NCBI GenBank assembly: GCA_900617105.1
Contig: UYFQ01000315.1
Location: 62,001 to 126,000, forward strand
Direction of reading: 5' to 3'
From: Hydrurus foetidus
Lineage: Eukaryota
Length of the DNA stretch: 64,000 nucleotides
The position numbers and the translations under genes were made by a program. Below the pieces are notes generated by a model. It saw only the letters and a program-made list of their open reading frames with translations. It had not been told where the DNA came from and did not search any database. This document shows, in pieces, positions 11,147-64,000 of this stretch. Position 1 is the first letter of the stretch; the number at the start of each line of letters is the position of its first letter.

Positions 11147-11796
11147 CTTCAGTTGAGACGCCTAGAAAAGATTGGTGGAGCTATACCAGCGGTGCTGATA
11201 GCGGAGTAAATTTGCAGAGACTTTACTTTTTGAGTGAAGGTTTAAAATGCAGATTCGTCCTTGCGGTGCTGCTGCTTGAAAGCAAAAGATGCGCACGAAT
11301 GACGTCCGAATGTCCGAATGAATATTTCGCACTCTTTTCGTGATAACTTCAATCGACAATGATCGGATCCCAGATCCATGATCCTGTGTGGTGTTAGAAA
11401 ACAGGTAGCGCGCACGTACGCACGCCCAAAACAATCCCAAATAATTTGAATACCGAATGTACCCTCTCGAAACCGCTGTACTGAAAGAATGTCTCAGACA
11501 GAGTGATCAGTGGCCAGTCTTCTGCAAAGGCCACCAATGAAATGAATCTGCTGAGAAGTTGCATCACGAGCAGATTCCTTTTCCCATTTGTCATCGTCGA
11601 TAGATGCAAACGCCATCCAAATATCTGACTTTAAAATGGTTGTCATCACTATCCAGGATATTCTAGATGATTTTGAGGAGTCATCTATTATATTCAAAAG
11701 GAGATTCAGAAACGGGATCAATATTAAATGAAATATTATCGATTCCGTGTACTGCTACTTTGATTACGCCATCTGTAGGTCGAACGCGAAGTCGTT
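11147..11796. promoter_or_regulatory. Putative bidirectional promoter/5' UTR region between FBPase and the giant repeat gene (650 bp)
   Basis: Inferred from the head-to-head arrangement. Contains a gcgcgcacgtacgcacgc element at ~11408-11426. Confidence 0.4.
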
Positions 11797-14700
11797 ATGT
11801 TCAATACTCCCCAAAGTATATCACCAAGAAGGAGAAGAGGATCAACAGCTGGGGTGGTTAGACCTCCAAATGGTAGCATTGGACCACCACAACTTCAAAG
11901 GAATGGAATTGATCTCAATTCGAACCGCAGAATGAACCCAGCAGCGCCATTACCAGATGTGGATCTAAAAGGAACCACTCCTATGTACAAGAGTGAATCT
12001 GTTCGGAACCTCGAGGATATCAACTACCAACTAAAGGAATTGAGGAGAAGGAGACAGGAGCTTGCTGGTAGCTGTATTCTTGGGTATGCAGCACCATTGA
12101 TGCCTGTCAGACTTACCATCGACACGAGATATCTCCAATCTCGGAAAGAAGCTGAAATTCTTTCAAAATCTTACGAGAGGTAAGAAGTACGATTATAACT
12201 TTTTGACATCAGATTGTTCGCTTCACACTTCAATCAAGATTCTACAGCATAGTTGATGTCAGTGACTTTGGCGAGAAATCTAAGTCGCTTTTATCCGTGA
12301 TGTGATGTTGGACATGGGTATTTGTGATCAATCCATTTCGTTAACTTTTAACAGTATGTGAGAAAAATTTCGAATAGAAGGAGGAACAAAGTGTCAAACT
12401 TGTATGAGTCCAAGTATTATTCTTTGTCACACTGCTACAGTACCCCCATTCGTTCCATTTGTTTGTTTTGCATTTTATTCATGTTCAATTACTGATATCA
12501 ACTGTTACAACTTAAAAGTAGCAAATCACTTTTTAGCACCCAAATCATAGTCGATATCTTAACTTAATGCTGATTATTTAGTCTCGAGTTATCCCCTGGG
12601 CTAAAAGTAAACATTCTAAAGAAGAGACCGTCAACAGGGAAATGCCCGAATGATCTAACAGGTACATGCCAAACAGTATTTCTTCGTAATGTATATTGCA
12701 GGTGTTCCTTCCCTTCAGTGTTATTTAACATCTGTATTTACTGTATATTATAGTGATTGTAGATTAAAATCAACGTTTTACTTTTTCTCCTCTTCTTTAA
12801 GTGTCACCAATTTGAATAATTCTTATATCATATCGCGTACTTCACTCCTAATCATATTCTGCTCCGAAATTCCGCATTCTGCACACGCTTGTTTTTTTCT
12901 TTCAGTCTCTTTTAGGCCGAAATCTCCAGAAAATGGATACTCTGTTGACCCATTTAAAAATCACGAAAAAGATAGTGGAAAAAATGACAGAATTGAAAAG
13001 ATAGAAAAAAGTGCAAAAGTAGGAAAAGAAAATGAGAGACGCTCGGCATGGTCTGAAATTTCATCCGTAGAGAATGTTCACCTTCCTAAGGAATGTTCTT
13101 CGCCATCGCCTTATAGATTAGAAGATTCCCAAAAAGTTCCTCGCAGGATATTCCATCATCCGGAATTTGAGTTTGCTGTGGAATCTATAGTGCACAGTCC
13201 CTATCTCATCGGTCCTGCGTGTTCCTATCCAGGTACAGTAACATAACGTACGCACTTATTATTAGCAACTTGAACCTTAGATTCCAGAATTTTATTTTAA
13301 TTTTAATCTCCCTGATATTTTAGAATTTATCTGCTAAATTTTGTCTCTCATGATTTGCGTTTTCTCCTAGTGATGATTTGAATAATCTTCTTCTGTTCTT
13401 TGATGATTTGATTTGCGTAAAATCTCGAGAAGAGTAATTACGGCATATTTTAAATTTAAGTGGTCGCAAAAGGCGAATTTATTCCTCTGCTGAATAAAGC
13501 GACTTTACGTCTTCTTATTTTTCAGAATCTACTTTATCTGTGCCTGCCGCAATTAAAGGATACAGAGAAAAAGGAATTCAATACCATAACATCCCAGGTG
13601 CTTTCATCACAATCTTTCTTTTTTTCAAATGTATCTGGATCCATTTAATTGCGTCAGAAATCGTTTTCTAATTTTCAGCTCAATTATTCTTTCTTGATAG
13701 AATTTTGAATTTTGTACGCTCCTTATCTTCATTCTTCCTACTGTAATTTAGTCACTTCTTAACACCTTCTCTTATGAACAGATAATGCATGGAATACTCA
13801 CGAGTGCTTTTTTGTCAAACCTAAACTGATTTCCTTTCTGCTCTTTTGATTGAACAACTTGTCTTACCTTCCATCCTAACATTATCACATCCCATCCTAA
13901 CATTATCACATCCCATCCTAACATTATCACATCCCATCCTAACATTATCACTTCCCATCCTAACATTATCACATCCCATCCTAACATTATCACATCCCAT
14001 CCTAACATTATCACATCCCATCCTAACATTATCACATCCCATCCTAACATTATCACTTCCCATCCTAACATTATCACATCCCATCCTAACATTATCACAT
14101 CCCATCCTAACATTATCACATCCCATCCTAACATTATCACATCCCATCCTAACATTATCACATCCCATCCTAACATTATCACATCCCATCCTAACATTAT
14201 CACATCCCATCCTAACATTATCACATCCCATCCTAACATTATCACATCCCATCCTAACATTATCACATCCCATCCTAACATCATCATCCATCCCCATTAT
14301 CACATCCCATCCTAACATTATCACATCCCATCCTAACATTATCACATCCCATCCTAACATTATCACATCCCATCCTAACATTATCACATCCCATCCTAAC
14401 ATTATCACATCCCATCCTAACATTATCACATCCCATCCTAACATTATCACATCCCATCCTAACATTATCACATCCCATCCTAACATTATCACATCCCATC
14501 CTAACATTATCACATCCCATCCTAACATTATCACATCCCATCCTAACATTATCACATCCCATCCTAACATTATCACATCCCATCCTAACATTATCACATC
14601 CCATTCTCGTTATCTTACATTTTTCTTTTTCATTTCTTAGCGAAAGATATTCCGTTTGATCACAAAAATTCAAGAAAACGGTTTCTGGCCGATGTTGTAA

Positions 14701-15141
14701 ACTACAAACATTCCAATTTACCGTATTCTGAAAAAGGAAAGGTAACTGTTATCAATGAGCAATTTGCTGATGCTGTGACTGATTAATTTGAATCTTCTAA
14801 TAGAATAATTTATCTTCTCTTCCCTTCTCTTCTCCTCTTCTCTCCTCCCTTTCATTCCTCCTCTTACATCTATTAAAGCATGTCCGCAGCTACTTCACTT
14901 CTCTTTTATCCTATCCTCCCTTACAAAGCTCTGCTCTATTCCTATTCCTATTCCTATCGACCGCCACATTTTCCCTCATCTACTACTACCCAACACACAT
15001 CTTTTTTTCATTTTTCCAAGTGTAAAAATAGCCAACAAGAGGATTTCACGATATGGCCAAGTAAACTGATCCTCGCAGTAGCTGCCTCACCGACACTTTC
15101 CAGCGACTTAGAACAAAAACTAAACGAGTTCACTGATATAG
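11797..15141 (+). CDS. 5' small exons of a giant acidic repeat protein gene
   Basis: Phase-consistent chain: 11797-12179 (MFNTPQSISPRRRR...SYE), 12248-12296, 12355-12401, 12582-12661, 12906-13232, 13526-13597, 14641-14741, 15021-15141. All have GT/AG ends and no stops (1180 nt). The chain joins in phase to the acceptor TATTTAG| at 15428, which is in frame with ORF 15547-20406. The start codon is uncertain because there is also an acceptor at 11778. Confidence 0.7.
13871..14604. repeat. 21-bp minisatellite (CATCCCATCCTAACATTATCA), ~35 near-identical copies, intronic
   Basis: Direct tandem array with two A>T variant units and one disrupted unit at ~14281-14296. Lies between exons 13526-13597 and 14641-14741. 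Confidence 0.98.
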
Positions 15142-15427
15142 GTATTTGGTAATGTCTCAGCATGCAGTTGCACGTGCGTACGTGTACATGTCCGTACGTA
15201 TGTACGTTCCTACGACGTATTCTTTTGCGTTCATAGAGGGTCACGTGAACGTATGCGCGTACACACGTACTTGATTAAATTCAGACAGTCACATACGTAC
15301 GCACATGCATGTACGAGTCATTTTAATCACCTTCTGCCAGATTTAGAAAAAAATGCATGCCCAGTATCTGTGATCAAAAATTGAATCTAATTCCCTTCTA
15401 ATTAGTCTTATTATCATCCTTATTTAG

Positions 15428-18400
15428 ATCTTACAAACCGCTGCACGCCCACCAACGGCAGACAAACAATACGTGCATTAAAACTAGCCAACCGTATAGA
15501 GAGTAATTTAAAAGCGTTAAATACATTACTGGAACCAACCGGTTTCATGGGTAAGTGCGTACTTGTTGAAAAGAAGAAAATCTTGGGTCAGCCATCTCCA
15601 AGTTCTGTTGCTGATTTCGTAAGGTTACAGGGTAAGTTTAATTCGGGAATGAGCGTAGATTGCGATGATGATATTGAGAGGAGAAATGAAGGTGGATTCA
15701 AAAGAAAAGTATCTGATAGCATGAAAAGTAATGTGAGTAAGAAAAGAAATGATGACCAAGAGATAGACAAATGTAAAAGTGAGTATGATAATGAAAATGA
15801 AAATGAAATTGAAAGTGGAAATGGGTGCGTAAATGAAAATTATAGTGTGGAGAGAAAAGAAGAAGATGACGACGATAGTAAGGTTCATATTATACAAGTA
15901 TCTGAACCAGATGATATCATTATAAACGAAAATAAAGCCGTGAGAAAATCTACCGGAAGAATACGGCAAGATTGGCGAACAAGAAAAAAAAGAAGCAATC
16001 AAGATGAAAATGAATTAGAAAATAAGATGGATATTCATCGAAATGGGAATGGACAGAAAATAGAAATGGATGATGTAGATGTGCTGGAAGAATTTGCGCA
16101 TGATAACAATAAAGAATCAATCATGATAAATGCAAATATTGATGAAATTGATTTTTTAGGTGATGAGAATATGAATATAGATGCTAATTGTGTTACAGAT
16201 ATTCCAAGTGATGGTAAGAGACGTAATGATAATGAGTTGCAACAAAGAGGACGAAAAGATCTGATGATAAGCGTCTTAAAGGAGAGGAAAAAAGACAAGA
16301 AAATGACGTTACGAAATAAAAAAGAGAGATTGTATGATGACAATACTGATATCAGAAATGCAAACAGTTTATCTCTTGTCGAAAACATAACTGAAGTGAA
16401 AGTACTTTCGAGCACGGAAAAAAATGAGAAACAGCAATTTTATCCTTTGAAAAATGACGAAAAATTGTCGAAAGTAAAGCGAGATAAAAGTTTAAAAAAG
16501 AGAAAGAAAAAAGATGATCAAATAGAAGTGAGTAATAGCAACAACAATGACGAAAAAAAAGAAGTCAGTCGGAAGCACGAACAAGATGAGAAGAAGGACG
16601 GCGTACATACACACATTAGCGATGAATTATGCTGGAAAACTAAAATAAATTTACGAGAAAGCGAGGGAAAGAATGAAGAAGATAGCACAATCCAATCAGA
16701 AGTACCACTGAAAGAAGATAAGTCCAAAAGAAATTGTGAAAGTAAGGACACATCTGATAATGCTTTCGGTCCAAATAGTAGTTACAAAGATGTTGGAGAC
16801 AATAGTGGTGACAACGAAACATCCCCACAATATGTGGAGGATTTCGGTGATAGAATAGAGTTGCTGTCTGATTTTATCCCGACATTTCGTAAAGACATAA
16901 ATGACGAAAACGACTTATGTAATGAGAATAAAAAAGAAGACACAGACAGGAAAGATGGAAAGAATGAATATGGGAAAAAGACTGAATATGATGATAAGAA
17001 TGAATATGATATTCTGAACGAAAGGGGAGGGAGTTACAGTGAGGATATTAAAGAGGAAGATAAGTGTTATGAAGATGTCTTTGAAGATGACAAGGGATAT
17101 GCAGTTCGCGACTTCGATTTCGAGGATGAAAGAGACGATGAAAAAAGATGTGTCGTTGAGACGGAACAGGGAGAGGGAGAGGGAGAGATGGATGGAAAGG
17201 ATGATGAAAAAACTAGTTTTGTTGGAAAGGATAAAGAAGAGGGAGAGGGAGGGAGAGATGAAATGAAGATAGGACAGGAAGAGGAAGAAGAAGTGCGGTA
17301 TGAAGAGGCAAATGAAGTGGAAGTGTATCAGAACGATAACATGGAGGATGAAATGGGAGTGGATGACGAAGGAGAACATGAGGACACAGTACACGAAGAT
17401 GAGCAATATGAGGACGAAGATCAGATTAGCGGAGATGAAATTGTTCGAGATGAGGCGGTGCATGCAAAAGGTGCTGCTAGGAGAAATAGAGGTGGCAGAA
17501 TTGATGGAGGAGAGGAGAGTGATAATGTCGACAGCGATGAAATGAAAGAATGTACTCGGATGACAGAGATTGCGGTAGAGGTAGAGAAATATGTAGAGAT
17601 AGCAGTGGAGGCAGTAGAAGAAGAAAGAGGTGACTTTAATGATGTGCAGAGCACTCTACCTGATACCATCTCGGATGATCGCTATCTCCTTGTTGAAGTT
17701 GAGAACACCCTGAAAGAGACTCAAAATGACATGATAGACATGGAGATGCGAATGCAGTTGGAGATAGGCGCACAGGAAGAGAAGGAGGAAGAGGAAGAGG
17801 AAGAGGGAGAGGAAGATCGAAGTGAAGGAAATATGAAGGAGAAAGAGGAGGAGAAAAAGGAGGAGAAAGAGGAGGAGAAAAAGGAGGAGAAAAAGGATGA
17901 GGATGAGGGAGAGGAAGAGGGAGAGGAAGAGGAGAGTGCCACATCACATACAGAGTTAGCGGTGGATGTTACCTCTGAGATCGCAGCACAGGATGAGATG
18001 GAGGTAGAGAAGGAGGTAGAGATGGAGGTAGAGAAAGAGGTCTCTGAACTGCAGGAAACTGAAATATGTGGTGACAATGAGATTGAAGCTGAAGCGAAGG
18101 TAGTGTGTAGAGCTGATCAAGAAACAGGGAATGAAGATGGAGAAAAGGAGGTAGCAGAGGTCGATATCGAATCAAATGAAGGTGAGGAGCAGAGCGAGAA
18201 AGAAGTTGTCTTGGATATTACAACACCAGCACAGACTGAAATTAAAGTTGAAGAAAAAGTTGAAAAAGATATTGATACTTTAGATGAGAAAAATATATCT
18301 GGCAAGAAAATTGAAGATGAAATTGAAGTTGAGAATAAAAAAGATGAAAATGGAATGCAAAATAAGTTCGAAAAAGACGAGGACATTGAAATAGGAAGAG

Positions 18401-21400
18401 ATGTAGATAATGAAATAAAAATTGGGAATAATGACATGCATAATACACCTGACAATCAAAACGAAAATGAAAACGAAAATGTCGCATCTCCTCCAGTATA
18501 CGCATTGGAGGGAGACTTTGTAACGGATGATAATATAGATCTGACAGTGCGTGGGGGGGATTTTGTAGGCCCTGATGATAGTGCTGAGAGTAATACGTGC
18601 GTTGGAGAGGGTAGTATGTACGTCCCTGAAAATAGTACGAGTGTCGCGGAAAGCAGTGAATTCATTGAAGATTGTCCGATGGATTCCTTCTATGACGGAG
18701 ATGAATGGAGGAACATGGTATTTCACGAGATAAGTGTGGAAGATGTGGGGGGAGGAGAAAGATATGAAGATTGGGATGAAGTCGAAGATGAACATGTAAA
18801 CGGCCTGATGGATGGGCAGGCGGATGAAATGAGGGATGAAGAGGGAGAAGAGAAGAGAAGTAAAGATGACAATGTTGAGTTCGAAGCAGGAGCCGAGGAA
18901 AGGGGAGCGTTCGAGAACTCTCTCCTATCTGACATCGATGCGAAACCTGACGCAGAGACAGACACAGTCAGAGAAGCACAAAACGAGGGTACAAATAAGA
19001 CAAAAATCAAAACTGGAGTCGAGACTGGAGTCGAGGCTCACATCGAAGCAGAGGTCGAGGTCGATGCAGAGGTCGAGGTCGATGCAGAGGTCGAGTTGAT
19101 AGCAGACATCAAGGCAGACATCGAGACTGGAGTCAAGGCTCACATCGAAGCAGAGGTCGAAGTAGAGGTCAATGTAGAGGTCGAGGTCGATGCAGAGGTC
19201 GAGTTGATAGCAGACATCGAGGCAGACATCGAGACTGGAGTCGAGGCTGACATCGAAGCAGAGGTCGAGGTCGATGCAGAGGTCGAGGTCGATGCAGAGG
19301 TCGAGTTGATAGCAGACATCGAGGCAGACATCGAGACTGGAGTCGAGGCTCACATCGAAGCAGAGGTCGAGGTCGATGCAGAGGTCGAGGTCGATGCAGA
19401 GGTCGAGGTCGATGCAGAGGTCGAGTTGATAGCAGACATCGAGGCAGACATCGAGACTGGAGTCGAGGCTAACATCGAAGCAGAGGTCGAGGTCGATGCA
19501 GAGGTCGAGGTCGATGCAGAGGTCGAGGTCGATGCAGAGGTCGAGGTCGATGCAGAGGTCGAGTTGATAGCAGACATCGAGGCAGACATCGAGACTGGAG
19601 TCGAGGCATACATCGAAGCAGAGGTCGAGGTCGATGCAGAGGTCGAGGTCGAGGTCGAGGTCGATGCAGAGGTCGAGTTGATAGCAGACATCGAGGCAGA
19701 CATCGAGACTGGAGTCGAGGCTGACATCGAAGCAGAGGTCGAGGTCGAGGTCGATGCAGAGGTAGAGGTCGAGTTGATAGCAGACATCGAGGCAGACATC
19801 GAGACTGGAGTCGAGGCTGACATCGAAGCAGAGGTCCAATTACAGGTCGAGGTCGATGCAGAGGTCGAGTTGATAGTAGACATCAAGGCAGACATCGAGA
19901 CTGGAGTGGAGGCATACATTGAAGCAGAGGTCGAGGTCGATGCAGAGGTCGAGGTCGATGCAGAGGTCGAGGTCGATTCAGAGGTCGAGTTGATAGCAGA
20001 CATCGAGGCAGACATCGAGACTGGAGTCGAGGCTGACATCGAAGCAGAGGTCGAGGTCGATGCAGAGGTCGAGGTCGAGGCAGAGGTCGAGTTGATAGCA
20101 GACATCGAGGCGAGACATCGAGAGAGGTCGAGGTCGATGCAGATCGATCGAAGCAGAGGTCGAGGTCGATGCAGAGGTCGAGTTGATAGCAGACATCGAG
20201 GCAGACATCGAGACTGGAGTCGAGGCTCACATCGAAGCAGAGGTCGATGTAGAGGTCGAGGTCGATGCAGAGGTCGAGTTGATAGCAGACATCGAGGCAG
20301 ACATCGAGACTGGAGTGGAGGCTCACATCGAAGCAGAGGTCGAGGTCGATGCAGGTCGAGGTCGAGCAGAGGTCGAGTGCAGAGGTCGAGTTCGATGTCG
20401 AGTTGATAGCAGACATCGAGGCAGACATCGAGACTGGAGTCGAGGCTCACATCGAAGCAGAGGTCGAGGTCGATGCAGAGGTCGAGTTGATAGCAGACAT
20501 CGAGGCAGACATCGAGACTGGAGTCGAGGCTCACATCGAAGCAGAGGTCGAGGTCGATGCAGAGGTCGAGGTCGATGCAGAGGTCGAGTTGATAGCAGAC
20601 ATCGAGGCAGACATCGAGACTGGAGTCGAGGCTCACATCGAAGCAGAGGTCGAGGTCGATGCAGAGGTCGAGGTCGAGGTCGATGCAGAGGTCGAGTTGA
20701 TAGCAGACATCGAGGCAGACATCGAGACTGGAGTCGAGGCTCACATCGAAGCAGAGGTCGAGGTCGATGCAGAGGTCGAGGTCGAGGTCGATGCAGAGGT
20801 CGAGTTGAGTTGATAGCAGACATCGAGGCAGACATCGAGACTGGAGTCGAGGCTCACATCGAAGCAGAGGTCGAGGTCGAGGTCGATGCAGAGGTCGAGT
20901 TGATATAGCAGACATCGAGGCAGACATCGAGACTGGAGTCGAGGCTCACATCGAAGCAGAGGTCGAAGTACAGGTCGATGCAGAGGTCGAGGTCGATGCA
21001 GAGGTCGAGGTCGATGCAGACATCGAGGCAGACATCGAGACTGGAGTCGAGGCTGACATCGAAGCAGAGGTCGAGGTCGATGCAGAGGTCGAGGAGGTCG
21101 ATGCAGGTCGAGTCGAGTTGATAGCAGACATCGAGGCAGACATCGAGACTGGAGTCGAGGCTCACATCGAAGCAGAGGTCGAGGTCGAGGTCGAGGTCGA
21201 TGCAGAGGTCGAGTTGATAGCAGACATCGAGGCAGACATCGAGACTGGAGTCGAGGCTCACATCGAAGCAGAGGTCGAGGTCGATGCAGAGGTCGAGAGG
21301 TCGATGCAGAGGTCGAGATCGAGGTCGAGTTGATAGCAGACATCGAGGCAGACATCGAGACTGGAGTCGAGGCTCACATCGAAGCAGAGGTCGAGGTCGA

Positions 21401-51400: not shown

Positions 51401-54400
51401 GGTCGAGTTGATAGCAGACATCGAGGCAGACATCGAGACTGGAGTCGAGGCTCACATCGAAGCAGAGGTCGAAGTACAGGTCGATGTCGAGTTGATAGCA
51501 GACATCGAGGCAGACATCGAGACTGGAGTCGAGGCTCACATCGAAGCAGAGGTCGAAGTACAGGTCGAGGTCGAGTTGATAGCAGACATCGAGGCAGACA
51601 TCGAGACTGGAGTCGAGGCTCACATCGAAGCAGATGTAGAAGCAGAGGTCGAGGTCGATGCAGAGGTCGAGATCGAGTTGATAGCAGACATCGAGGCAGA
51701 CATCGAGACTGGAGTCGAGGCTCACATCGAAGCAGAGGTCGAAGTACAGGTCGAAGTCGAGTTGATAGCAGACATCGAGGCAGACATCGAGACTGGAGTC
51801 GAGGCTCACATCGAAGCAGAGGTCGAGGTCGAGGTCGAGTTGATAGCAGACATCGAGGCAGACATCGAGACTGGAGTCGAGGCTCACATCGAAGCAGAGG
51901 TCGAGGTCGATGCAGAGGTCGAGGTCGAGTTGATAGCAGACATCGAGGCAGACATCGAGACTGGAGTCGAGGCTCACATCGAAGCAGAGGTCGAAGTACA
52001 GGTCGAGGTCGAGTTGATAGCAGACATCGAGGCAGACATCGAGACTGGAGTCGAGGCTCACATCGAAGCAGAGGTCGAGGTCGATGCAGAGGTCGAGGTC
52101 GAGTTGATAGCAGACATCGAGGCAGACATCGAGACTGGAGTCGAGGCTCACATCGAAGCAGAGGTCGAGGTACAGGTCGAGGTCGAGTCGAGTTGATAGC
52201 AGACATCGAGGCAGACATCGAGACTGGAGTCGAGGCTCACATCGAAGCAGAGGTCGAGGTCGAGGTCGAGTTGATAGCAGACATCGAGGCAGACATCGAG
52301 ACTGGAGTCGAGGCTCACATCGAAGCAGAGGTCGAGGTCGAGGTCGAGTTGATAGCAGACATCGAGGCAGACATCGAGACTGGAGTCGAGGCTCACATCG
52401 AAGCAGAGGTCGAGGTCGATGCAGACGTCGAGGTCGATTTGATAGCAGACATTGAGGAAGACATCGAGACTGGAGTCGAGGCTCACATCGAAGCAGAGGT
52501 CGAGGTCGATGCAGAGGTCGAGGTCGAGTTGATAGCAGACATCGAGGCAGACATCGAGACTGGAGTCGAGGCTCACATCGAAGCAGAGGTCGAAGTACAG
52601 GTCGAGGTCGAGTTGATAGCAGACATCGAGGCAGACATCGAGACTGGAGTCGAGGCTCACATCGAAGCAGAGGTCGAGGTCGATGCAGAGGTCGAGGTCG
52701 AGTTGATAGCAGACATCGAGGCAGACATCGAGACTGGAGTCGAGGCTCACATCGAAGCAGAGGTCGAAGTACAGGTCGAGGTCGAGTTGATAGCAGACAT
52801 CGAGGCAGACATCGAGACTGGAGTCGAGGCTCACATCGAAGCAGAGGTCGAAGCAGAGGTCGAGGTCGATGCAGAGGTCGAGATCGAGTTGATAGCAGAC
52901 ATCGAGGCAGACATCGAGACTCGAGAGTCGAGGCTCACATCGAAGCAGAGGTCGAAGTACAGGTCGATGTCGAGTTGATAGCAGACATCGAGGCAGACAT
53001 CGAGACTGGAGTCGAGGCTCACATCGAAGCAGAGGTCGAAGCACAGGTCGAGGTCGAGTTGTCGAGTCGAGTTGATAGCAGACATCGAGGCAGACATCGA
53101 GACTGGAGTCGAGGCTCACATCGAAGCAGAGGTCGATGCAGAGGTCGAGGTCGATGCAGAGGTCGAGATCGAGTTGATAGCAGACATCGAGGCAGACATC
53201 GAGACTGGAGTCGAGGCTCACATCGAAGCAGAGGTCGAGGTACAGGTCGAAGTCGAGTTGATAGCAGACATCGAGGCAGACATCGAGACTGGAGTCGAGG
53301 CTCACATCGAAGCAGAGGTCGAGGTCGATGCAGAGGTCGAGGTCGATGCAGAGGTCGAGATCGAGTTGATAGCAGACATCGAGGCAGACATCGAGACTGG
53401 AGTCGAGGCTCACATCGAAGCAGAGGTCGAGGTACAGGTCGAGGTCGAGTTGATAGCAGACATCGAGGCAGACATCGAGACTGGAGTCGAGGCTCACATC
53501 GAAGCAGAGGTCGAGGTCGAGGTCGATGCAGAGGTCGAGGTCGATGCAGAGGTCGAGTTGATAGCAGACATCGAGGCAGACATCGAGACTGGAGTCGAGG
53601 CTCACATCGAAGCAGAAGAAGAGGTCGAGTCCGATGCAGAGGTCGAGGTCGATGCAGAGGTCGAGTTGATAGCAGACATCGAGACTGGAGTCGAGGCTCA
53701 CATCGAAGCAGAGGTCGAGGTCGATGCAGAGGTCGAGGTCGAGGTCGATGCAGAGGTCGAGTTGATAGCAGACATCGAGGCAGACATCGAGACTGGAGTC
53801 GAGGCTCACATCGAAGCAGAGGTCGAGGTACAGGTCGAGGTCGAAATGATAGCAGACATCGAGACTGGAGTCGAGGCTCACATCGAAGCAGAGGTCGAGG
53901 TCGAGGTCGAGGTCGAGTTGATAGCAGACATCGAGGCAGACATCGAGACTGGAGTCGAGGCTCACATCGAAGCAGAGGTCGAGGTCGATGCAGAGGTCGA
54001 GTTGATAGCAGACATCGAGGCAGACATCGAGACTGGAGTCGAGGCTCACATCGAAGCAGAGGTCGAAGTACAGGTCGAGGTCGAGTTGATAGCAGACATC
54101 GAGGCAGACATCGAGACTGGAGTCGAGGCTCACATCGAAGCAGAGGTCGAAGCAGAGGTCGAGGTCGATGCAGAGGTCGAGTTGATAGCAGACATCGAGG
54201 CAGACATCGAGACTGGAGTCGAGGCTCACATCGAAGCAGAGGTCGAGGTCGAGGTCGAGGTCGATGTCGAGTTGATAGCAGACATCGAGGCAGACATCGA
54301 GACTGGAGTCGAGGCTCACATCGAAGCAGAGGTCGAAGCAGAGGTCGAGGTCGATGCAGAGGTCGAGATCGAGTTGATAGCAGACATCGAGGCAGACATC

Positions 54401-57400
54401 GAGACTGGAGTCGAGGCTCACATCGAAGCAGAGGTCGAGCAGAGGTCGAGGTCGAGGTCGATGCAGAGGTCGAGTTGATAGCAGACATCGAGGCAGACAT
54501 CGAGACTGGAGTCGAGGCTCACATCGAAGCAGAGGTCGAAGTACAGGTCGAAGTCGAGTTGATAGCAGACATCGAGGCAGACATCGAGACTGGAGTCGAG
54601 GCTCACATCGAAGCAGAGGTCGAGGTCGATGCAGAGGTCGAGATCGAGTTGATAGCAGACATCGAGGCAGACATCGAGACTGGAGTCGAGGCTCACATCG
54701 AAGCAGAGGTCGAGGTCGATGCAGAGGTCGAGGTCGAGTTGATAGCAGACATCGAGGCAGACATCGAGACTGGAGTCGAGGCTCACATCGAAGCAGAGGT
54801 CGAAGTACAGGTCGATGTCGAGTTGATAGCAGACATCGAGGCAGACATCGAGACTGGAGTCGAGGCTCACATCGAAGCAGAGGTCGAAGTACAGGTCGAT
54901 GTCGAGTTGATAGCAGACATCGAGGCAGACATCGAGACTGGAGTCGAGGCTCACATCGAAGCAGAGGCAGAGGTCGAGGTCGATGCAGAGGTCGAGATCG
55001 AGTTGATAGCAGACATCGAGGCAGACATCGAGACTGGAGTCGAGGCTCACATCGAAGCAGAGGTCGAAGCAGAGGTCGAGGTCGATGCAGAGGTCGAGTT
55101 GATAGCAGACATCGAGGCAGACATCGAGACTGGAGTCGAGGCTCACATCGAAGCAGAGGTCGAAGCAGAGGTCGAGGTCGAGTTGATAGCAGACATCGAG
55201 GCAGACATCGAGACTGGAGTCGAGGCTCACATCGAAGCAGAGGTCGAGGTCGATGCAGAGGTCGAGATCGAGTTGATAGCAGACATCGAGGCAGACATCG
55301 AGACTGGAGTCGAGGCTCACATCGAAGCAGAGGTCGAGGTCGATGCAGAGGTCGAGGTCGAGTTGATAGCAGACATCGAGGCAGACATCGAGACTGGAGT
55401 CGAGGCTCACATCGAAGCAGAGGTCAAAGTACAGGTCGAGGTCGAGTTGATAGCAGACATCGAGGCAGACATCGAGACTGGAGTCGAGGCTCACATCGAA
55501 GCAGATGTAGAAGCAGAGGTCGAGGTCGATGCAGAGGTCGAGATCGAGTTGATAGCAGATATCGAGGCAGACATCGAGGCAGACATCGAGACTGGAGTCG
55601 AGGCTCACATCGAAGCAGAGGTCAAAGTACAGGTCGATGTCGAGTTGATAGCAGACATCGAGGCAGACATCGAGACTGGAGTCGAGGCTCACATCGAAGC
55701 AGAGGTCGAAGTACAGGTCGAGGTCGAGTTGATAGCAGACATCGAGGCAGACATCGAGACTGGAGTCGAGGCTCACATCGAAGCAGAGGTCGAAGCAGAG
55801 GTCGAGGTCGATGCAGAGGTCGAGATCGAGTTGATAGCAGACATCGAGGCAGACATCGAGACTGGAGTCGAGGCTCACATCGAAGCAGAGGTCGAAGTAC
55901 AGGTCGAGGTCGAGTTGATAGCAGACATCGAGGCAGACATCGAGACTGGAGTCGAGGCTCACATCGAAGCAGAGGTAGAAGCAGAGGTCGAGGTCGATGC
56001 AGAGGTCGAGATCGAGTTGATAGCAGACATCGAGGCAGACATCGAGACTGGAGTCGAGGCTCACATCGAAGCAGAGGTCGAGATCGAGTTGATAGCAGAC
56101 ATCGAGGCAGACATCGAGACTGGAGTCGAGGCTCACATCGAAGCAGAGGTCGAGGTCGATGCAGAGGTCGAGGTCGATGCAGAGGTCGAGTTGATAGCAG
56201 ACATCGAGGCAGACATCGAGACTGGAGTCGAGGCTCACATCGAAGCAGAGGTCGAAGCAGAGGTCGAGGTCGATGCAGAGGTCGAGATCGAGTTGATAGC
56301 AGACATCGAGGCAGACATCGAGACTGGAGTCGAGGCTCACATCGAAGCAGAGGCGGAGGTCGATGTCGAGTTGGTAGCAGACATCGAGGCAGACATCGAG
56401 ACTGGAGTCGAGGCTCACATCGAAGCAGAGGTCAAGGTCGAAGTACAGGTCGAGGTCGAGTTGATAGCAGACATCGAGGCAGACATCGAGACTGGAGTCG
56501 AGGCTCACATCGAAGCAGAGGTCGAAGCAGACGTCGAGGTCGATGCAGAGGTCGAGGTCGAGTTGATAGCAGACATCGAGGCAGACATCGAGACTGGAGT
56601 CGAGGCTCACATCGAAGCAGAGGTCGAGGTCGATGTCGAGTTGATAGCAGACATCGAGGCAGACATCGAGACTGGAGTCGAGGCTCACATCGAAGCAGAG
56701 GTCGAGGTCGAGGTCGAGGTCGAGTCGAGATCAGACATCGAGGCAGAGGTCGAGGTCGATGCAGAGGTCGAGATCGAGGATAGCAGACATCGAGGCAGAC
56801 ATCGAGACTGGAGTCGAGACTCACATCGAAGCAGAAGTAGAAGCAGAGGTCGAGGTCGATGCAGAGGTCGAGATCGAGTTGATAGCAGACATCGAGGCAG
56901 ACATCGAGACTGGAGTCGAGGCTCACATCGAAGCAGAGGTCGAAGTACAGGTCGAGGTCGAGTTGATAGCAGACATCGAGGCAGACATCGAGACTGGAGT
57001 CGAGGCTCACATCGAAGCAGAGGTCGAGGTCGAGGTCGAGTTGATAGCAGACATCGAGGCAGACATCGAGACTGGAGTCGAGGCTCACATCGAAGCAGAT
57101 GTCGAAGCAGAGGTCGAGGTCGATGCAGATCGAGGTCGATGCAGAGGTCGAGGTCGATGCAGAGGTCGAGTCGAGTTGATAGCAGACATCGAGGCAGACA
57201 TCGAGACTGGAGTCGAGGCTCACATCGAAGCAGAGGTAGAAGTAGAGGTCGAGGTCGATGCAGAGGTCGAGATCGAGTTGATAGCAGACATCGAGGCAGA
57301 CATCGAGACTGGAGTCGAGGCTCACATCGAAGCAGAGGTCGAAGTACAGGTCGAGGTCGAGTTGATAGCAGACATCGAGGCAGACATCGAGACTGGAGTC

Positions 57401-60400
57401 GAGGCTCACATCGAAGCAGAGGTCGAAGTACAGGTCGAAGTCGAGTTGATAGCAGACATCGAGGCACACATCGAGACTGGAGTCGAGGCTCACATCGAAG
57501 CAGATGTAGAAGCAGAGGTCGAGGTCGATGCAGACATCGAGGTCGATGCAGAGGTCGAGGTTGATGCAGAGGTCGAGTTGATAGCAGACATCGAGGCAGA
57601 CATCGAGACTGGAGTCGAAGCTCACATCGAAGCAGAAGTAGAAGTACAGGTCGAGGTCGATGCAGAGGTCGAGATCGAGTTGATAGCAGACATCGAGGCA
57701 GACATCGAGACTGGAGTCGAGGCTCACATCGAAGCAGAGGTCGAGGTCGAGGTCGAAGTCGAGTTGATAGCAGACATCGAGGCAGACATCGAGACTGGAG
57801 TCGAGGCTCACATCGAAGCAGAGGTCGAAGTACAGGTCGAAGTCGAGTTGATAGCAGACATCGAGGCAGACATCGAGACTGGAGTCGAGGCTCACATCGA
57901 AGCAGAGGCGGAGGTCGAGGTCGAGTTGATAGCAGACATCGAGGCAGACATCGAGACTGGAGTCGAGGCTCACATCGAAGCAGATGTAGAAGCAGAGGTC
58001 GAGGTCGATGCAGAGGTCGAGGTCGATGCAGAGGTCGAGGTCGAAATCGAGTTGATAGCAGACATCGAGGCAGACATCGAGACTGGAGTCGAGGCTCACA
58101 TCGAAGCAGAGGTCGAGGTCGATGCAGAGGTCGAGTTGATAGCAGACATCGAGGCAGACATCGAGACTGGAGTCGAGGCTCACATCGAAGCAGAGGCGGA
58201 GGTCGAGGTCGAGTTGGTAGCAGACATCGAGGCAGACATCGAGACTGGAGTCGAGGCTCACATCGAAGCAGATGTAGAAGCAGAGGTCGAGGTCGATGCA
58301 GAGGTCGAGGTCGATGCAGAGGTCGAGGTCGATGCAGAGGTCGAGTTGATAGCAGACATCGAGGCAGACATCGAGACTGGAGTCGAGGCTCACATCGAAG
58401 CAGATGTAGAAGCAGAGGTCGAGGTCGATGCAGAGGTCGAGATCGAGTTGATAGCAGACATCGAGGCAGACATCGAGACTCGAGACTGTCGAGGCTCACA
58501 TCGAAGCAGAGGTCGAGGTACAGGTCGATGTCGAGTTGATAGCAGACATCGAGGCAGACATCGAGACTGGAGTCGAGGCTCACATCGAAGCAGAGGTCGA
58601 GGTCGATGCAGAGGTCGAGTTGATAGCAGACATCGAGGCAGACATCGAGACTGGAGTCGAGGCTCACATCGAAGCAGAGGTCGAGGTCGATGCAGAGGTC
58701 GAGGTCGAGGTCGATGCAGAGGTCGAGGTCGATGCAGAGGTCGAGATCGAGTTGATAGCAGACATCGAGGCAGACATCGAGACTGGAGTCGAGGCTCACA
58801 TCGAAGCAGATGTAGAAGCAGAGGTCGAGGTCGATGCAGAGGTCGAGATCGAGTTGATAGCAGACATCGAGGCAGACATCGAGACTGGAGTCGAGGCTCA
58901 CATCGAAGCAGAGGTCGAAGTACAGGTCGATGTCGAGTTGATAGCAGACATCGAGGCAGACATCGAGACTGGAGTCGAGGCTCACATCGAAGCAGAGGTC
59001 GAGGTCGATGCAGAGGTCGAGTTGATAGCAGACATCGAGGCAGACATCGAGACTGGAGTCGAGGCTCACATCGAAGCAGAGGTCGAGGTCGATGCAGACG
59101 TCGAGGTCGATGCAGAGGTCGAGGTCGATGCAGAGGTCGAGATCGAGTTGATAGCAGACATCGAGGCAGACATCGAGACTGGAGTCGAGACTCACATCGA
59201 AGCAGATGTAGAAGCAGAGGTCGAGGTCGATGCAGAGGTCGAGATCGAGTTGATAGCAGACATCGAGGCAGACATCGAGACTGGAGTCGAGGCTCACATC
59301 GAAGCAGAGGTCGAAGTACAGGTCGATGTCGAGTTGATAGCAGACATCGAGGCAGACATCGAGACTGGAGTCGAGGCTCACATCGAAGCAGAGGCGGAGG
59401 TCGAGGTCGAGTTGGTAGCAGACATCGAGGCAGACATCGAGACTGGAGTCGAGGCTCACATCGAAGCAGATGTAGAAGCAGAGGTCGAGGTCGATGCAGA
59501 CGTCGAGGTCGATGCAGAGGTCGAGGTTGATGCAGAGGTCGAGTTGATAGCAGACATCGAGGCAGACATCGAGACTGGAGTCGAAGCTCACATCGAAGCA
59601 GAAGTAGAAGTACAGGTCGAGGTCGATGCAGAGGTCGAGATCGATTTGATAGCAGACATCGAGGCACACATCGAGACTGGAGTCGAGGCTCACATCGAAG
59701 CAGAGGTCGAAGTACAGGTCGAAGTCGAGTTGATAGCAGACATCGAGGCAGACATCGAGACTGGAGTCGAGGCTCACATCGAAGCAGAGGTCGAAGTACA
59801 GGTCGAAGTCGAGTTGATAGCAGACATCGAGGCAGACATCGAGACTGGAGTCGAGGCTCACATCGAAGCAGATGTAGAAGCAGAGGTCGAGGTCGATGCA
59901 GACGTCGAGGTCGATGCAGAGGTCGAGGTTGATGCAGAGGTCGAGTTGATAGCAGACATCGAGGCAGACATCGAGACTGGAGTCGAGGCTCACATCGAAG
60001 CAGAGGTAGAAGCAGAGGTCGAGGTCGAGGTCGATGCAGAGGTCGAGATCGAGTTGATAGCAGACATCGAGGCAGACATCGAGACTGGAGTCGAGGCTCA
60101 CATCGAAGCAGAGGTCGAAGTACAGGTCGAAGTCGAGTTGATAGCAGACATCGAGGCAGACATCGAGACTGGAGTCGAGGCTCACATCGAAGCAGAGGTC
60201 GAAGTACAGGTCGAAGTCGAGTTGATAGCAGACATCGAGGCAGACATCGAGACTGGAGTCGAGGCTCACATCGAAGCAGAGGCGGAGGTCGAGGTCGAGT
60301 TGGTAGCAGACATCGAGGCAGACATCGAGACTGGAGTCGAGGCTCACATCGAAGCAGATGTAGAAGCAGAGGTCGATGCAGAGGTCGAGGTCGATGCAGA

Positions 60401-63400
60401 GGTCGAGTTCGAAATCGAGTTGATAGCAGACATCGAGGCAGACATCGAGACTGGAGTCGAGGCTCACATCGAAGCAGAGGTCGAGGTCGATGCAGAGGTC
60501 GAGTTGATAGCAGACATCGAGGCAGACATCGAGACTGGAGTCGAGGCTCACATCGAAGCAGATGTAGAAGCAGAGGTCGATGCAGAGGTCGAGGTCGATG
60601 CAGAGGTCGAGATCGAGTTGATAGCAGACATCGAGGCAGACATCGAGACTGGAGTCGAGGCTCACATCGAAGCAGAGGTCAAAGTACAGGTCGATGTCGA
60701 GTTGATAGCAGACATCGAGGCAGACATCGAGACTGGAGTCGAGGCTCACATCGAAGCAGAGGTCGAGGTCGATGCAGAGGTCGAGGTTGACATCGAAGCA
60801 GAGGTCGAGGTCGATGCAGAGGTCGAGTTGATAGCAGACATCGAGGCAGACATCGAGACTGGAGTCGAGGCTCACATCGAAGCAGAGGTCGAAGTACAGG
60901 TCGAAGTCGAGTTGATAGCAGACATCGAGGCAGACATCGAGACTGGAGTCGAGGCTCACATCGAAGCAGAGGTCGGACAGGTCGATGGTCGAGTTGATAG
61001 CAGACATCGAGGCAGACATCGAGACTGGAGTCGAGGCTCACATCGAAGCAGAGGTCGAAGTACAGGTCGAAGTCGAGTTGATAGCAGACATCGAGGCAGA
61101 CATCGAGACTGGAGTCGAGGCTCACATCGAAGCAGAGGTCGAGGTCGAGTTGATAGCAGACATCGAGGCAGACATCGAGACTGGAGTCGAGGCTCACATC
61201 GAAGCAGAGGTCGAGGTCGATGCAGACGTCGAGGTTGACATCGAAGCAGAGGTCGAGGTCGATGCAGAGGTCGAGTTGATAGCAGACATCGAGGCAGACA
61301 TCGAGACTGGAGTCGAGGCTCACATCGAAGCAGAGGTCGAAGTACAGGTCGAAGTCGAGTTGATAGCAGACATCGAGGCAGACATCGAGACTGGAGTCGA
61401 GGCTCACATCGAAGCAGAGGTCAAAGTACAGGTCGAGGTCGAGTTGATAGCAGACATCGAGGCAGACATCGAGACTGGAGTCGAGGCTCACATCGAAGCA
61501 GAGGTCGAAGTACAGGTCGAAGTCGAGTTGATAGCAGACATCGAGGCAGACATCGAGACTGGAGTCGAGGCTCACATCGAAGCAGAGGTCGAGGTCGAGT
61601 TGATAGCAGACATCGAGGCAGACATCGAGACTGGAGTCGAGGCTCACATCGAAGCAGATGTAGAAGCAGAGGTCGATGCAGAGGTCGAGGTCGAGGTCGA
61701 TGCAGAGGTCGAGATCGAGTTGATAGCAGACATCGAGGCAGACATCGAGACTGGAGTCGAGGCTCACATCGAAGCAGAGGTCGAGGTCGAGGTCGAAGTC
61801 GAGTTGATAGCAGACATCGAGGCAGACATCGAGACTGGAGTCGAGGCTCACATCGAAGCAGAGGTCGAGGTCGATGCAGACGTCGAGGTCGATGCAGAGG
61901 TCGAGGTCGATGCAGAGGTCGAGATCGAGTTGATAGCAGACATCGAGGCAGACATCGAGACTGGAGTCGAGGCTCACATCGAAGCAGAGGTCGAAGTACA
62001 GGTCGAAGTCGAGTTGATAGCAGACATCGAGGCAGACATCGAGACTGGAGTCGAGGCTCACATCGAAGCAGAGGCGGAGGTCGAGGTCGAGTTGATAGCA
62101 GACATCGAGGCAGACATCGAGACTGGAGTCGAGGCTCACATCGAAGCAGAGGCAGAGGTCGAGGTCGATGCAGAGGTCGAGGTCGATGCAGAGGTCGAGA
62201 TCGAGTTGATAGCAGACATCGAGGCAGACATCGAGACTGGAGTCGAGGCTCACATCGAAGCAGAGGTCGAAGTACAGGTCGAAGTCGAGTTGATAGCAGA
62301 CATCGAGGCAGACATCGAGACTGGAGTCGAGGCTCACATCGAAGCAGAGGCGGAGGTCGAGGTCGAGTTGATAGCAGACATCGAGGCAGACATCGAGACT
62401 GGAGTCGAGGCTCACATCGAAGCAGAGGTCGAAGTACAGGTCGAGGTCGAGTTGATAGCAGACATCGAGGCAGACATCGAGACTGGAGTCGAGGCTCACA
62501 TCGAAGCAGAGGCGGAGGTCGAGGTCGAGTTGATAGCAGACATCGAGGCAGACATCGAGACTGGAGTCGAGGCTCACATCGAAGCAGATGTAGAAGCAGA
62601 GGTCGATGCAGACGTCGAGGTCGAGGTCGATGCAGAGGTCGAGATCGAGTTGATAGCAGACATCGAGGCAGACATCGAGACTGGAGTCGAGGCTCACATC
62701 GAAGCAGAGGTCGAGGTCGAAGTAGAGGTCGAAGTCGAGTTGATAGCAGACATCGAGGCAGACATCGAGACTGGAGTCGAGGCTCACATCGAAGCAGAGG
62801 CGGAGGTCGAGGTCGAGTTGATAGCAGACATCGAGGCAGACATCGAGACTGGAGTCGAGGCTCACATCGAAGCAGATGTCGAAGCAGAGGTCGAGGTCGA
62901 TGCAGAGGTCGAGGTCGAGGTCGATGCAGAGGTCGAGTTCGAGTTGATAGCAGACATCGAGGCAGACATCGAGACTGGAGTCGAGGCTCACATCGAAGCA
63001 GAGGTCGAGGTCGATGCAGAGGTCGAGTTGATAGCAGACATCGAGGCAGACATCGAGACTGGAGTCGAGGCTCACATCGAAGCAGAGGTAGAAGCAGAGG
63101 TCGAGGTCGATGCAGAGGTCGAGGTCGAGGTCGATGCAGAGGTCGAGTTCGAGTTGATAGCAGACATCGAGGCAGACATCGAGACTGGAGTCGAGGCTCA
63201 CATCGAAGCAGAGGTCGAGGTCGATGCAGAGGTCGAGTTGATAGCAGACATCGAGGCAGACATCGAGACTGGAGTCGAGGCTCACATCGAAGCAGATGTA
63301 GAAGCAGAGGTCGATGCAGAGGTCGAGGTCGATGCAGAGGTCGAGATCGAGTTGATAGCAGACATCGAGGCAGACATCGAGACTGGAGTCGAGGCTCACA

Positions 63401-64000
63401 TCGAAGCAGAGGTCAAAGTACAGGTCGAAGTCGAGTTGATAGCAGACATCGAGGCAGACATCGAGACTGGAGTCGAGGCTCACATCGAAGCAGAGGTCGA
63501 GGTCGATGCAGAGGTCGAGGTTGACATCGAAGCAGAGGTCGAGGTCGATGCAGAGGTCGAGGTCGAGTTGATAGCAGACATCGAGGCAGACATCGAGACT
63601 GGAGTCGAGGCTCACATCGAAGCAGAGGTCGAAGTACAGGTCGAAGTCGAGTTGATAGCAGACATCGAGGCAGACATCGAGACTGGAGTCGAGGCTCACA
63701 TCGAAGCAGAGGTCAAAGTACAGGTCGAGGTCGAGTTGATAGCAGACATCGAGGCAGACATCGAGACTGGAGTCGAGGCTCACATCGAAGCAGAGGTCGA
63801 AGTACAGGTCGAAGTCGAGTTGATAGCAGACATCGAGGCAGACATCGAGACTGGAGTCGAGGCTCACATCGAAGCAGAGGTCGAGGTCGAGTTGATAGCA
63901 GACATCGAGGCAGACATCGAGACTGGAGTCGAGGCTCACATCGAAGCAGAGGTCGAGGTCGATGCAGACGTCGAGGTTGACATCGAAGCAGAGGTCGAGG
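15428..64000 (+). CDS. Giant exon: ~1,200 aa non-repetitive K/N/D/E-rich region followed by an E/V/D/A/I tandem-repeat region; runs off the window; interrupted by frameshifts and 3 TAG codons in this assembly
   Basis: Uninterrupted acidic reading frame 15428 to ~20110, from unique sequence straight into the repeats. After that, long acidic-frame ORFs (e.g. 22148-26851, 40626-43230, 45335-48043, 48940-51411) are linked by local indels. Confidence 0.65.
19012..64000 (+). repeat. >=45 kb tandem array of roughly 500 units (estimate): 60-bp core plus variable 6-nt-module linker
   Basis: Core gagttgatagcagacatcgaggcagacatcgagactggagtcgaggctcacatcgaagca, followed by combinations of gaggtc, gatgca, gaagta, caggtc and gagatc. 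Units are mostly ~66-115 bp. Confidence 0.99.

What the first reader, a model, noticed from the sequence alone, without database searches (positions are those of the whole stretch)
11797..64000. Candidate giant (>16,000 aa) hyper-acidic repeat protein gene with a single >48 kb exon
Seen: eight small exons splice in phase into an exon at 15428. That frame reads ~1,200 aa of unique acidic sequence and enters the tandem array with no stop or frame change, and the array is still running at 64000. Summed coding length is ~49.7 kb, or ~16,500 aa minimum, with roughly 40% Asp/Glu in the repeat. The N-terminus is basic and S/P/R-rich (SPRRRR; KKRKKK near 16495) with no evident signal peptide, so I infer an intracellular protein. 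I recognise no family. Inference: a novel structural or scaffold protein, or an ion-binding polyanion, of giant size.
Basis: partly seen in the sequence, partly recalled or inferred. Interest (0 to 1): 0.9.

Follow-up and report, generated by a model that had tools for sequence, protein, structure and literature searches.

The report
Giant acidic repeat-rod protein gene
A spliced gene of an unidentified eukaryote runs into more than 440 copies of an acidic repeat that is predicted to stack into a long, strongly negative protein rod, but the assembled sequence is broken 62 times, so the likely giant size (thousands to possibly over 16,000 amino acids) is unproven.

Summary
The gene is real in outline; the unbroken 16,500-aa frame is not there as assembled. 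Six small GT-AG exons (not eight) splice in phase into a large exon at 15428. One public contig set (X5, library unrecorded) shows two of the junctions and reads through the 15551 donor. The frame is open from 15428 to 20110 only; the array (19015 to the window end, 444 anchors) holds 59 frame changes and 3 stops, and the product as written is 2,020 aa. Most breaks look like consensus errors: clustered, private, absent from 3.2 kb of read-matched unique DNA. One shift is shared by two sister copies (37664/38173) and may be real, which would cap the protein near 7,800 aa. The repeat alternates acidic and hydrophobic residues (99% hydrophobic at every second position). Two AlphaFold models give two strands per unit, a SufBD/curli-like beta-solenoid (Z 16-18). 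Best reading: an intracellular giant protein with a cation-dependent polyanionic beta-solenoid rod. Recent variants show no purifying selection, no homologue was found, and no RNA evidence covers the array.

The parts
11797..12179 (+). exon 1 (ATG; basic, S/P/R-rich; no signal peptide)
   Evidence: in phase, GT donor; no transcript evidence
12582..12661 (+). exon 2
   Evidence: exons 2-4 total 479 nt against 481 letters upstream of 14641 in the X5 spliced record (length match only)
12906..13232 (+). exon 3
   Evidence: no family or homologue
13526..13597 (+). exon 4
13871..14604 (.). 21-bp x35 minisatellite in intron 4; 1 of 33 spacings irregular
14641..14741 (+). exon 5
   Evidence: GT..AG joint to exon 6 in X5
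15021..15141 (+). exon 6
   Evidence: GT..AG joints on both sides in X5
15428..19014 (+). exon 7, unique part: about 1,196 codons, basic then increasingly acidic low-complexity sequence
   Evidence: X5 covers 15428-17769 with two small holes; X1 DNA contig identical over 14605-17769
15551..15552 (+). strong GGTAAGT donor inside exon 7 (a second at 15632); read through in X5
19015..64000 (+). tandem array, 444 anchors, units mostly 26-40 aa built of hexamers, e.g. [28 protein letters not shown] at 20430-20513; predicted one beta-solenoid rung per unit
20110..22153 (+). dense cluster of 17 frame changes (5.3 per kb); first one ends the assembled ORF at TGA 20404-20406
37604..38291 (+). sister units that share a one-base frame change (37664 and 38173): the best candidate for a real break
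7401..11630 (-). neighbour: intron-containing fructose-1,6-bisphosphatase gene, head to head with the repeat gene (bounds approximate)
   Evidence: Pfam FBPase and FBPase_C hits; PDB hits

Best explanation
This is a spliced eukaryotic gene whose long acidic exon runs in frame into a 45-kb tandem array that likely encodes, once probable assembly errors are set aside, thousands of residues predicted to fold as a beta-solenoid rod with one rung per repeat and carboxylate-covered faces. Shown: exon phases, two junctions and read-through to 17.8 kb in one contig set, in-frame entry, strict acid/hydrophobic alternation. Predicted: each unit gives two strands with a fixed turn at ET(G) and a variable loop at the other edge; V/A/I/L/T pack inside, E/D face out. 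Inferred: about 13 acids per 0.48-nm rung (about 28 charges per nm) cannot stack unscreened, so the chain would be an extended polyanion that stiffens into a rod when Ca2+, Mg2+ or H+ bind; held by the basic N-terminal region, it would act inside the cell as a cation-responsive spacer, scaffold or ion store whose length is set by repeat number. Length odds: break within 20-22 kb 0.25; break by about 38 kb (4,000-7,800 aa) 0.35; whole array, at least 16,500 aa, 0.3; array spliced out or untranscribed 0.1.
For: Gene. Breaks look like errors: 0 of 59 shifts share a +-45-nt context against 110 of 328 rare-codon sites; 3 of 56 distinct shift contexts recur against 47 of 218 (p 0.003); 23 of 58 gaps are 150 nt or less against 10.4 expected; 10 of 59 are loss of one G from GG; 7 of 9 shifts with an identifiable sister block are absent from the sister; 0 differences and 0 gaps in 3,165 unique bases matched by X1; polishing is known to damage large repeats (passages of PMC7484160). 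Protein-shaped unit: second hexamer position 99% hydrophobic, first 78% acidic; differences among the 11 common hexamer types fall 6/8/15 on codon positions 1/2/3; both classes kept in 8 of 11 types against 1.8 expected. Fold: 14 strands for 7 units (pLDDT 65, pTM 0.68) and 18 for 9 units from a single sequence (pLDDT 76, pTM 0.76); best matches SufB/SufD beta-helices, Z 16.2, rmsd 3.3 over 209 and Z 18.1, rmsd 3.6 over 231, and curli CsgA, Z 14.5-17.9 with rmsd 8.
Against: The assembled frame ends at 20406. One shift is shared by true sister copies, is not a homopolymer loss, and the in-frame form of that context occurs twice elsewhere; the data allow up to about half or more of the shifts to be real (95% upper bound 0.46-0.73). 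Recent variants show no purifying selection (synonymous 8 of 39, non-synonymous 30 of 134 possible changes seen twice or more); stop depletion is not significant (0 of 11 against 22 of 136). In-frame unit lengths (405 of 443 spacings) follow from hexamer slippage with or without coding. Hexamer types share ancestry, so the p-values are optimistic. No RNA evidence beyond 17800; raw oligo-dT runs X20 and X21 gave only 8 partial off-target reads each. X5's library is unrecorded and comes from the same study as X1. Only 2 of 5 single-sequence models folded (76, 61, 31, 23, 23); Foldseek gave nothing at E 0.001 or better; AlphaFold ignores charge repulsion. No homologue. Cation binding and scaffold role are untested.
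Confidence: 0.4

Rival explanations
1. Ordinary-sized orphan protein with a runaway tail: the frame really breaks at 20.1-22.2 kb, giving about 2,000-2,600 aa with some 11-30 repeats; the rest of the array is an expanded satellite in the 3' UTR or beyond the gene.
For: This is what the assembly says (2,020 aa). No purifying selection on recent variants, a shared shift and three stops further on, no RNA evidence over the array, and no regional difference in decay before and after 37.6 kb.
Against: The 17 early shifts are packed at 5.3 per kb against 0.8-1.1 elsewhere, in a stretch with almost no shared variants for reads to anchor on. A freely decaying array should have copied about 12 shift contexts; 3 recur, 1 by descent.
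Confidence: 0.25
2. The array is translated but never folds: a giant disordered polyanion acting as entropic spacer, crowding agent or ion buffer; the period-2 pattern only reflects its hexamer origin.
For: About 28 negative charges per nm if stacked; 3 of 5 single-sequence models unfolded; the upstream 800 aa are plain acidic low complexity; amino-acid changes tolerated.
Against: Diverged hexamers keep the inward residue hydrophobic far more than chance; only 2 of 397 shift-poor units class as clean odd-length against none expected to be excluded by frame alone (4 odd units in all, 2 without a shift); unit boundaries match predicted rungs in 16 of 16 units.
Confidence: 0.18
3. The main mRNA leaves exon 7 at the strong donor 15551 or 15632 and joins exons beyond the window; the acidic exon and array belong to a minor long isoform or to a retained intron.
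For: Two perfect GGTAAGT donors right after the ordered-looking N-terminal part; giant ankyrins gain their tails through isoform-specific large exons (passages of PMC6703079).
Against: The only spliced record reads through both donors; no loose end or joint was listed there. A 1,195-codon open frame is not intron-like.
Confidence: 0.1
4. A nuclear nucleic-acid mimic or histone/basic-protein chaperone: basic clusters import it and the acidic rod binds DNA-binding proteins.
For: Basic clusters at aa 11, 83, 547, 649, 718; acidic beta-helices that mimic DNA exist (pentapeptide-repeat proteins, recalled).
Against: No such protein among the 50 listed rows of either fold search, which is inconclusive; charge density is several times that of DNA (DNA value recalled); size is extreme for nuclear import.
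Confidence: 0.07

Closest known systems
Plasmodium Pf332 (and Pf11-1) giant glutamate-rich repeat proteins
   Same: Small 5' coding part plus a very large exon of acidic repeats; Pf332 has an 18,282-nt mRNA, 6,094 aa, exon I of 1,704 bp (passages of PMC1868959). Pf11-1 architecture is recalled, not read.
   Different: No DBL domain or other Pfam family in the exons scanned, no sequence match, free-living context inferred; repeat here alternates acid and hydrophobic residues and is predicted to form a solenoid.
Giant ankyrins (Drosophila Ank2-L/XL, vertebrate giant ankyrins)
   Same: Intracellular proteins with an N-terminal anchor and a huge C-terminal part gained through large exons, not conserved between lineages (passages of PMC6703079).
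   Different: No ankyrin-repeat, spectrin-binding or death domain hit; microtubule role untested.
Epiplastins / alveolins / articulins
   Same: Low-complexity medial domain, V+I 30% against 33 +- 7%, beta-strand prediction, net negative (section 7 and passages of PMC6212826).
   Different: 4 acid-base dyads in 14,956 residues, A+G 19% instead of near exclusion, no VPV, true tandem repeats, and far longer.
Two-sided beta-solenoids: SufB/SufD core and curli CsgA
   Same: Predicted fold, two long strands per rung.
   Different: 5-18% identity, no cysteine in the repeat, no Asn/Gln ladders, no signal peptide; hundreds of rungs in one chain rather than a short domain or stacked subunits.
PKZILLA-1/-2 and titin (size only)
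   Same: Giant genes that poly-A RNA-seq misses beyond about 10 kb from the 3' end; PKZILLA-1 is 45,212 aa (passages of 10.1101/2024.01.29.577497).
   Different: Those are multidomain enzymes or Ig chains; even at 16,500 aa this would not be a size record.

Membership tests
Epiplastins | numerous acid-base dyads in the medial domain | tested here: not met
   4 dyads in 14,956 residues, K+R 0.6% (criterion)
Epiplastins | high V+I (33 +- 7%) | tested here: met
   30.2%
Epiplastins | near exclusion of A and G | tested here: not met
   A+G 19%
Epiplastins | beta-strand/coil prediction | tested here: met
   all-beta models
Epiplastins | organism builds an epiplast | not testable with these tools
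   organism not identified; needs microscopy
SufB/SufD | right-handed parallel beta-helix core | tested here: met
   predicted models only; Z 16.2 and 18.1
SufB/SufD | family sequence profile and Fe-S ligands | tested here: not met
   no SufBD Pfam hit among 13 weak, composition-driven hits; no Cys codon in the tracked array
Curli CsgA-type functional amyloid | beta-solenoid with one repeat per rung | tested here: met
   predicted; Z 14.5-17.9, rmsd 8
Curli CsgA-type functional amyloid | Asn/Gln ladders and a secretion signal (features recalled) | tested here: not met
   N 0.1%, Q 0.7%; no hydrophobic N-terminus
Ice-binding or ice-nucleating beta-solenoids | flat Thr-x-Thr arrays (feature recalled) | tested here: not met
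   one Thr per unit, 3.2%, at the predicted turn; outer faces acidic
Giant ankyrins | ankyrin-repeat, spectrin-binding and death domains | tested here: not met
   no Pfam hit in exons 1, 3, 4, 5, 6 and unique exon 7, scanned one by one; exon 2 (27 codons) not scanned
Giant single-exon repeat proteins (architecture) | one uninterrupted, transcribed and translated repeat exon | tested here: inconclusive
   only 1 acceptor-like site in the array, but 59 shifts and 3 stops as assembled and no RNA laid on the array

The most novel reading that the evidence does not exclude
The whole array is one open coding exon of more than 48 kb, giving a single chain of over 16,500 aa whose 440+ repeats fold, on binding cations or protons, into a polyanionic beta-solenoid rod more than 200 nm long: a built-in, switchable intracellular filament or mineral/ion template unlike any described eukaryotic cytoskeletal protein.
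Probability: 0.17. Interest if true: 0.88.

Novelty: new variant of a known kind. Interest (0 to 1): 0.58.

Why it matters
If even the part up to 38 kb is translated, this is a lineage-specific protein of about 7,800 aa made almost wholly of one predicted beta-solenoid repeat, longer than the solenoids among the fold matches by more than an order of magnitude and with about 13 carboxylates per rung. It would be a natural test case for cation- or pH-switched folding of acidic beta-rods and for how coding minisatellites build giant proteins. It also shows how such genes drop out of annotation: repeat consensus errors break the frame and poly-A RNA-seq cannot see the 5' part. If the early break is real it is an orphan 2,000-aa protein beside a satellite, of modest interest.

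Tried and rejected
No whole genome is held for this window, so the end of the array and any C-terminal domain could not be reached. Homologue searches found nothing: exact 26-nt array motif in metagenome contigs, 0 stretches; exon 3 against longer proteins, 0 of 47 candidates; residues 7-560 of exon 7, 0 of 7,983; first 257 residues of exon 7 against 1.84 billion representatives, 0; exon 3 against PDB, 0; synteny route through the SLC52-like neighbour, 274 pattern hits, none confirmed; earlier scan notes, none on this gene. The spliced N-terminal product was not searched as one piece, so a domain split over exons 3-7 may have been missed. The protein atlas gave no answer. A phage search with the FBPase exon was uninformative. 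Cluster look-ups gave no organism names. A first hexamer test was circular for the hydrophobic position and was redone without the filter. Antisense readings: the Ser/Thr-rich frame is closed (412 stops); the mirror frame is open (4 stops) but has no upstream exon or transcript support. Pfam hits of the repeat (Vit_open_b-sht, DUF481, DNAJC11 barrel) are treated as composition artefacts. An assembler loop is unlikely: longest exact repeat 309 nt, 98% of 250-mers unique, regional subfamilies. Shift density against shared-variant density: rho -0.31, p 0.11, not significant. The blank in X20/X21 is not used as evidence either way: no control gene was laid. Paper searches listed no description of such a protein; the library lacks most subscription journals.
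Full report
Setting. The window is intron-rich eukaryotic DNA: an SLC52-like transporter gene at about 2.9-4.5 kb and an intron-containing fructose-1,6-bisphosphatase on the minus strand at about 7.4-11.6 kb. No whole genome is held and my calls did not establish the lineage.

Gene model. Six small exons (11797-12179, 12582-12661, 12906-13232, 13526-13597, 14641-14741, 15021-15141; 1,084 nt) join in phase, all GT-AG, to a large exon at 15428. I could not place two further in-phase exons (candidates between exons 1 and 2 break the frame). Laying four runs on 14605-17800: DNA-like contig set X1 matches 3,165 bases with 0 other letters and 0 gaps; X5 holds a 1,587-nt record with GT..AG joints at exon 5/6 and 6/7 that reads through the donors at 15551 and 15632 to 16311, and two more records to the end of the laid stretch (27 of 30 bins). 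The record has 481 letters upstream of exon 5; exons 2-4 sum to 479, plus the AG that exon 1 and intron 1 both end in. X5's library is not on record and its depth is a flat 2, so it may be long cDNA reads, an assembled transcript set or even gene models, and it shares a study with X1: support, not independent proof. Raw oligo-dT runs X20 and X21 (10.5 million records each) gave 8 partial off-target reads each. That blank is uninformative: no control gene was laid, and poly-A libraries lose signal beyond about 10 kb from the 3' end (passages of the PKZILLA preprint). Nothing was laid on exon 1-4 or beyond 17800.

The frame is not continuous as assembled. The frame is open from 15406 to 20406; its unique part is 1,195 codons against a maximum of 153 in 300 shuffles. 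It enters the array in frame at about 19015 and stays in register for 11 units. Frame tracking then finds 59 changes and 3 TAG in 14,956 codons. The product as written is 2,020 aa with an Arg/Ser/Gly tail from the shifted frame; with an intact frame it would be at least 16,552 aa. The array has one acceptor-like site in 45 kb, so introns do not explain the shifts.

Errors or mutations? For errors: shifts are private (0 of 59 share a +-45-nt context against 110 of 328 rare-codon sites; 3 of 56 distinct contexts recur against 47 of 218, p 0.003), clustered (23 of 58 gaps at most 150 nt, 10.4 expected), 10 of 59 are loss of a G from GG, 7 of 9 with an identifiable sister block are missing from the sister, 17 lie in 2 kb with almost no shared variants, and the intron minisatellite has a similar irregularity rate (1 of 33 spacings). 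Standard polishing is reported to lower quality in large repeats (passages of PMC7484160). Against: two true sister units share one shift (37664, 38173) that is not a homopolymer loss; if real, the protein ends near 7,800 aa. The propagation test only bounds the real share below 0.46-0.73. Recent substitutions in the 60-nt core (416 copies) show no synonymous excess (8 of 39 against 30 of 134), and stop depletion is not significant (0 of 11 against 22 of 136). With hundreds of redundant units weak selection per unit is expected, but a non-coding array gives the same picture. My odds: early break 0.25, break by 38 kb 0.35, whole array open 0.3, array outside the mRNA 0.1.

Anatomy of the repeat. 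444 anchors; 405 of 443 spacings are multiples of 3, 401 of 6. Units are 238 distinct peptides among 443, with local higher-order repeats and regional subfamilies; the longest exact repeat is 309 nt, so this is not a looped assembly. In 397 of 443 units (those with spacing a multiple of 6 and no shift; 46 dropped), the second residue of each hexamer is hydrophobic in 99.0% and the first acidic in 78%; differences among common hexamer types favour third codon positions (6/8/15) and keep both classes in 8 of 11 types against 1.8 expected (types are not independent). The unit was therefore likely shaped as protein.

Predicted fold. AlphaFold on 19231-20016 with an alignment of 16 array segments gave 14 strands for 7 units (pLDDT 65, pTM 0.68); on 49423-50232 as a single sequence 18 strands for 9 units (best 76 and 0.76; the five models 76, 61, 31, 23, 23). 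In 16 of 16 units there are two strands, a turn at ET(G) and the variable (EV/DA)n part at the other edge. VIA-align ranks SufB/SufD beta-helices first (Z 16.2, rmsd 3.3, 209 aligned; Z 18.1, rmsd 3.6, 231 aligned) with curli CsgA close (Z 14.5 and 17.9, rmsd 8); Foldseek gave no match at E 0.001 or better, best SufB at 0.0017. No shuffled control was folded. At the textbook 0.48 nm per rung, 444 units span about 213 nm with 13.4 acids per rung, about 28 charges per nm.

Mechanism. Shown: splicing of exons 5-7, read-through, in-frame entry, alternation. Predicted: one rung per unit. Inferred: such charge needs screening, so the chain is an extended polyanion that stiffens into a rod on binding divalent cations or protons; the basic N-terminal region (net positive over the first 200 aa, falling to about -30 per 100 aa after aa 900; no signal or membrane segment) would anchor it inside the cell. 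It would work as a cation-responsive spacer, scaffold or ion store. Confidence 0.4 for the whole; rivals are a 2,000-aa orphan with a satellite tail (0.25), an unfolded giant polyanion (0.18), a minor long isoform (0.1) and a nuclear DNA mimic (0.07).

Comparison. It works like giant repeat-exon proteins (Pf332, passages; giant ankyrins, passages) and is predicted to fold like SufBD or curli solenoids, but is a member of none. Epiplastins (section 7 and passages of PMC6212826) share high V+I and beta prediction, yet acid-base dyads (4 in 14,956) and A/G exclusion (19%) fail. No homologue was found, with the limit that exons were searched singly. Paper searches (listings only, except the five papers named) showed no such protein. 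Supplements were not read.

Verdict. Observation partly confirmed; interpretation partly supported. A real orphan gene with a striking, probably coding acidic solenoid array whose true length hangs on a check of raw reads. New variant of a known kind; interest 0.58.

Noticed in passing
window 7401-11630 (-) and 11797 (+): The FBPase gene and the repeat gene are head to head within a few hundred bases, so they may share a bidirectional promoter; the FBPase 5' end was not fixed.
   Followed up: partly
window 2867-4455 (+): SLC52 / riboflavin-transporter-like gene (Pfam PF06237, E 2e-8); 31 unnamed relatives at 30-97% identity in metagenome-derived proteins.
   Followed up: partly
window 13871-14604: 21-bp x35 minisatellite inside intron 4, open in several frames on both strands; one irregular spacing.
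   Followed up: partly
window 19015-64000 (-): The antisense mirror frame of the array is also nearly stop-free (4 stops in 14,953 codons), which gives long minus-strand ORFs up to 7 kb; probably a by-product of the hexamer make-up.
   Followed up: yes
window 20110-20406 (+): The +1 frame of the repeat reads as an Arg/Ser/Gly-rich, RS/RGG-like peptide; a real shift would give the protein a basic tail of about 100 aa.
   Followed up: no
window 29826-33000, 37082-38500, 46406-47740: Higher-order repeats of 5-8 units inside the array, and a shift to shorter 26-30-aa units beyond 48 kb: a record of stepwise local expansion.
   Followed up: partly
other pieces of the same assembly: Earlier notes describe Brevundimonas-like bacterial DNA, so the assembly mixes organisms.
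   Followed up: no
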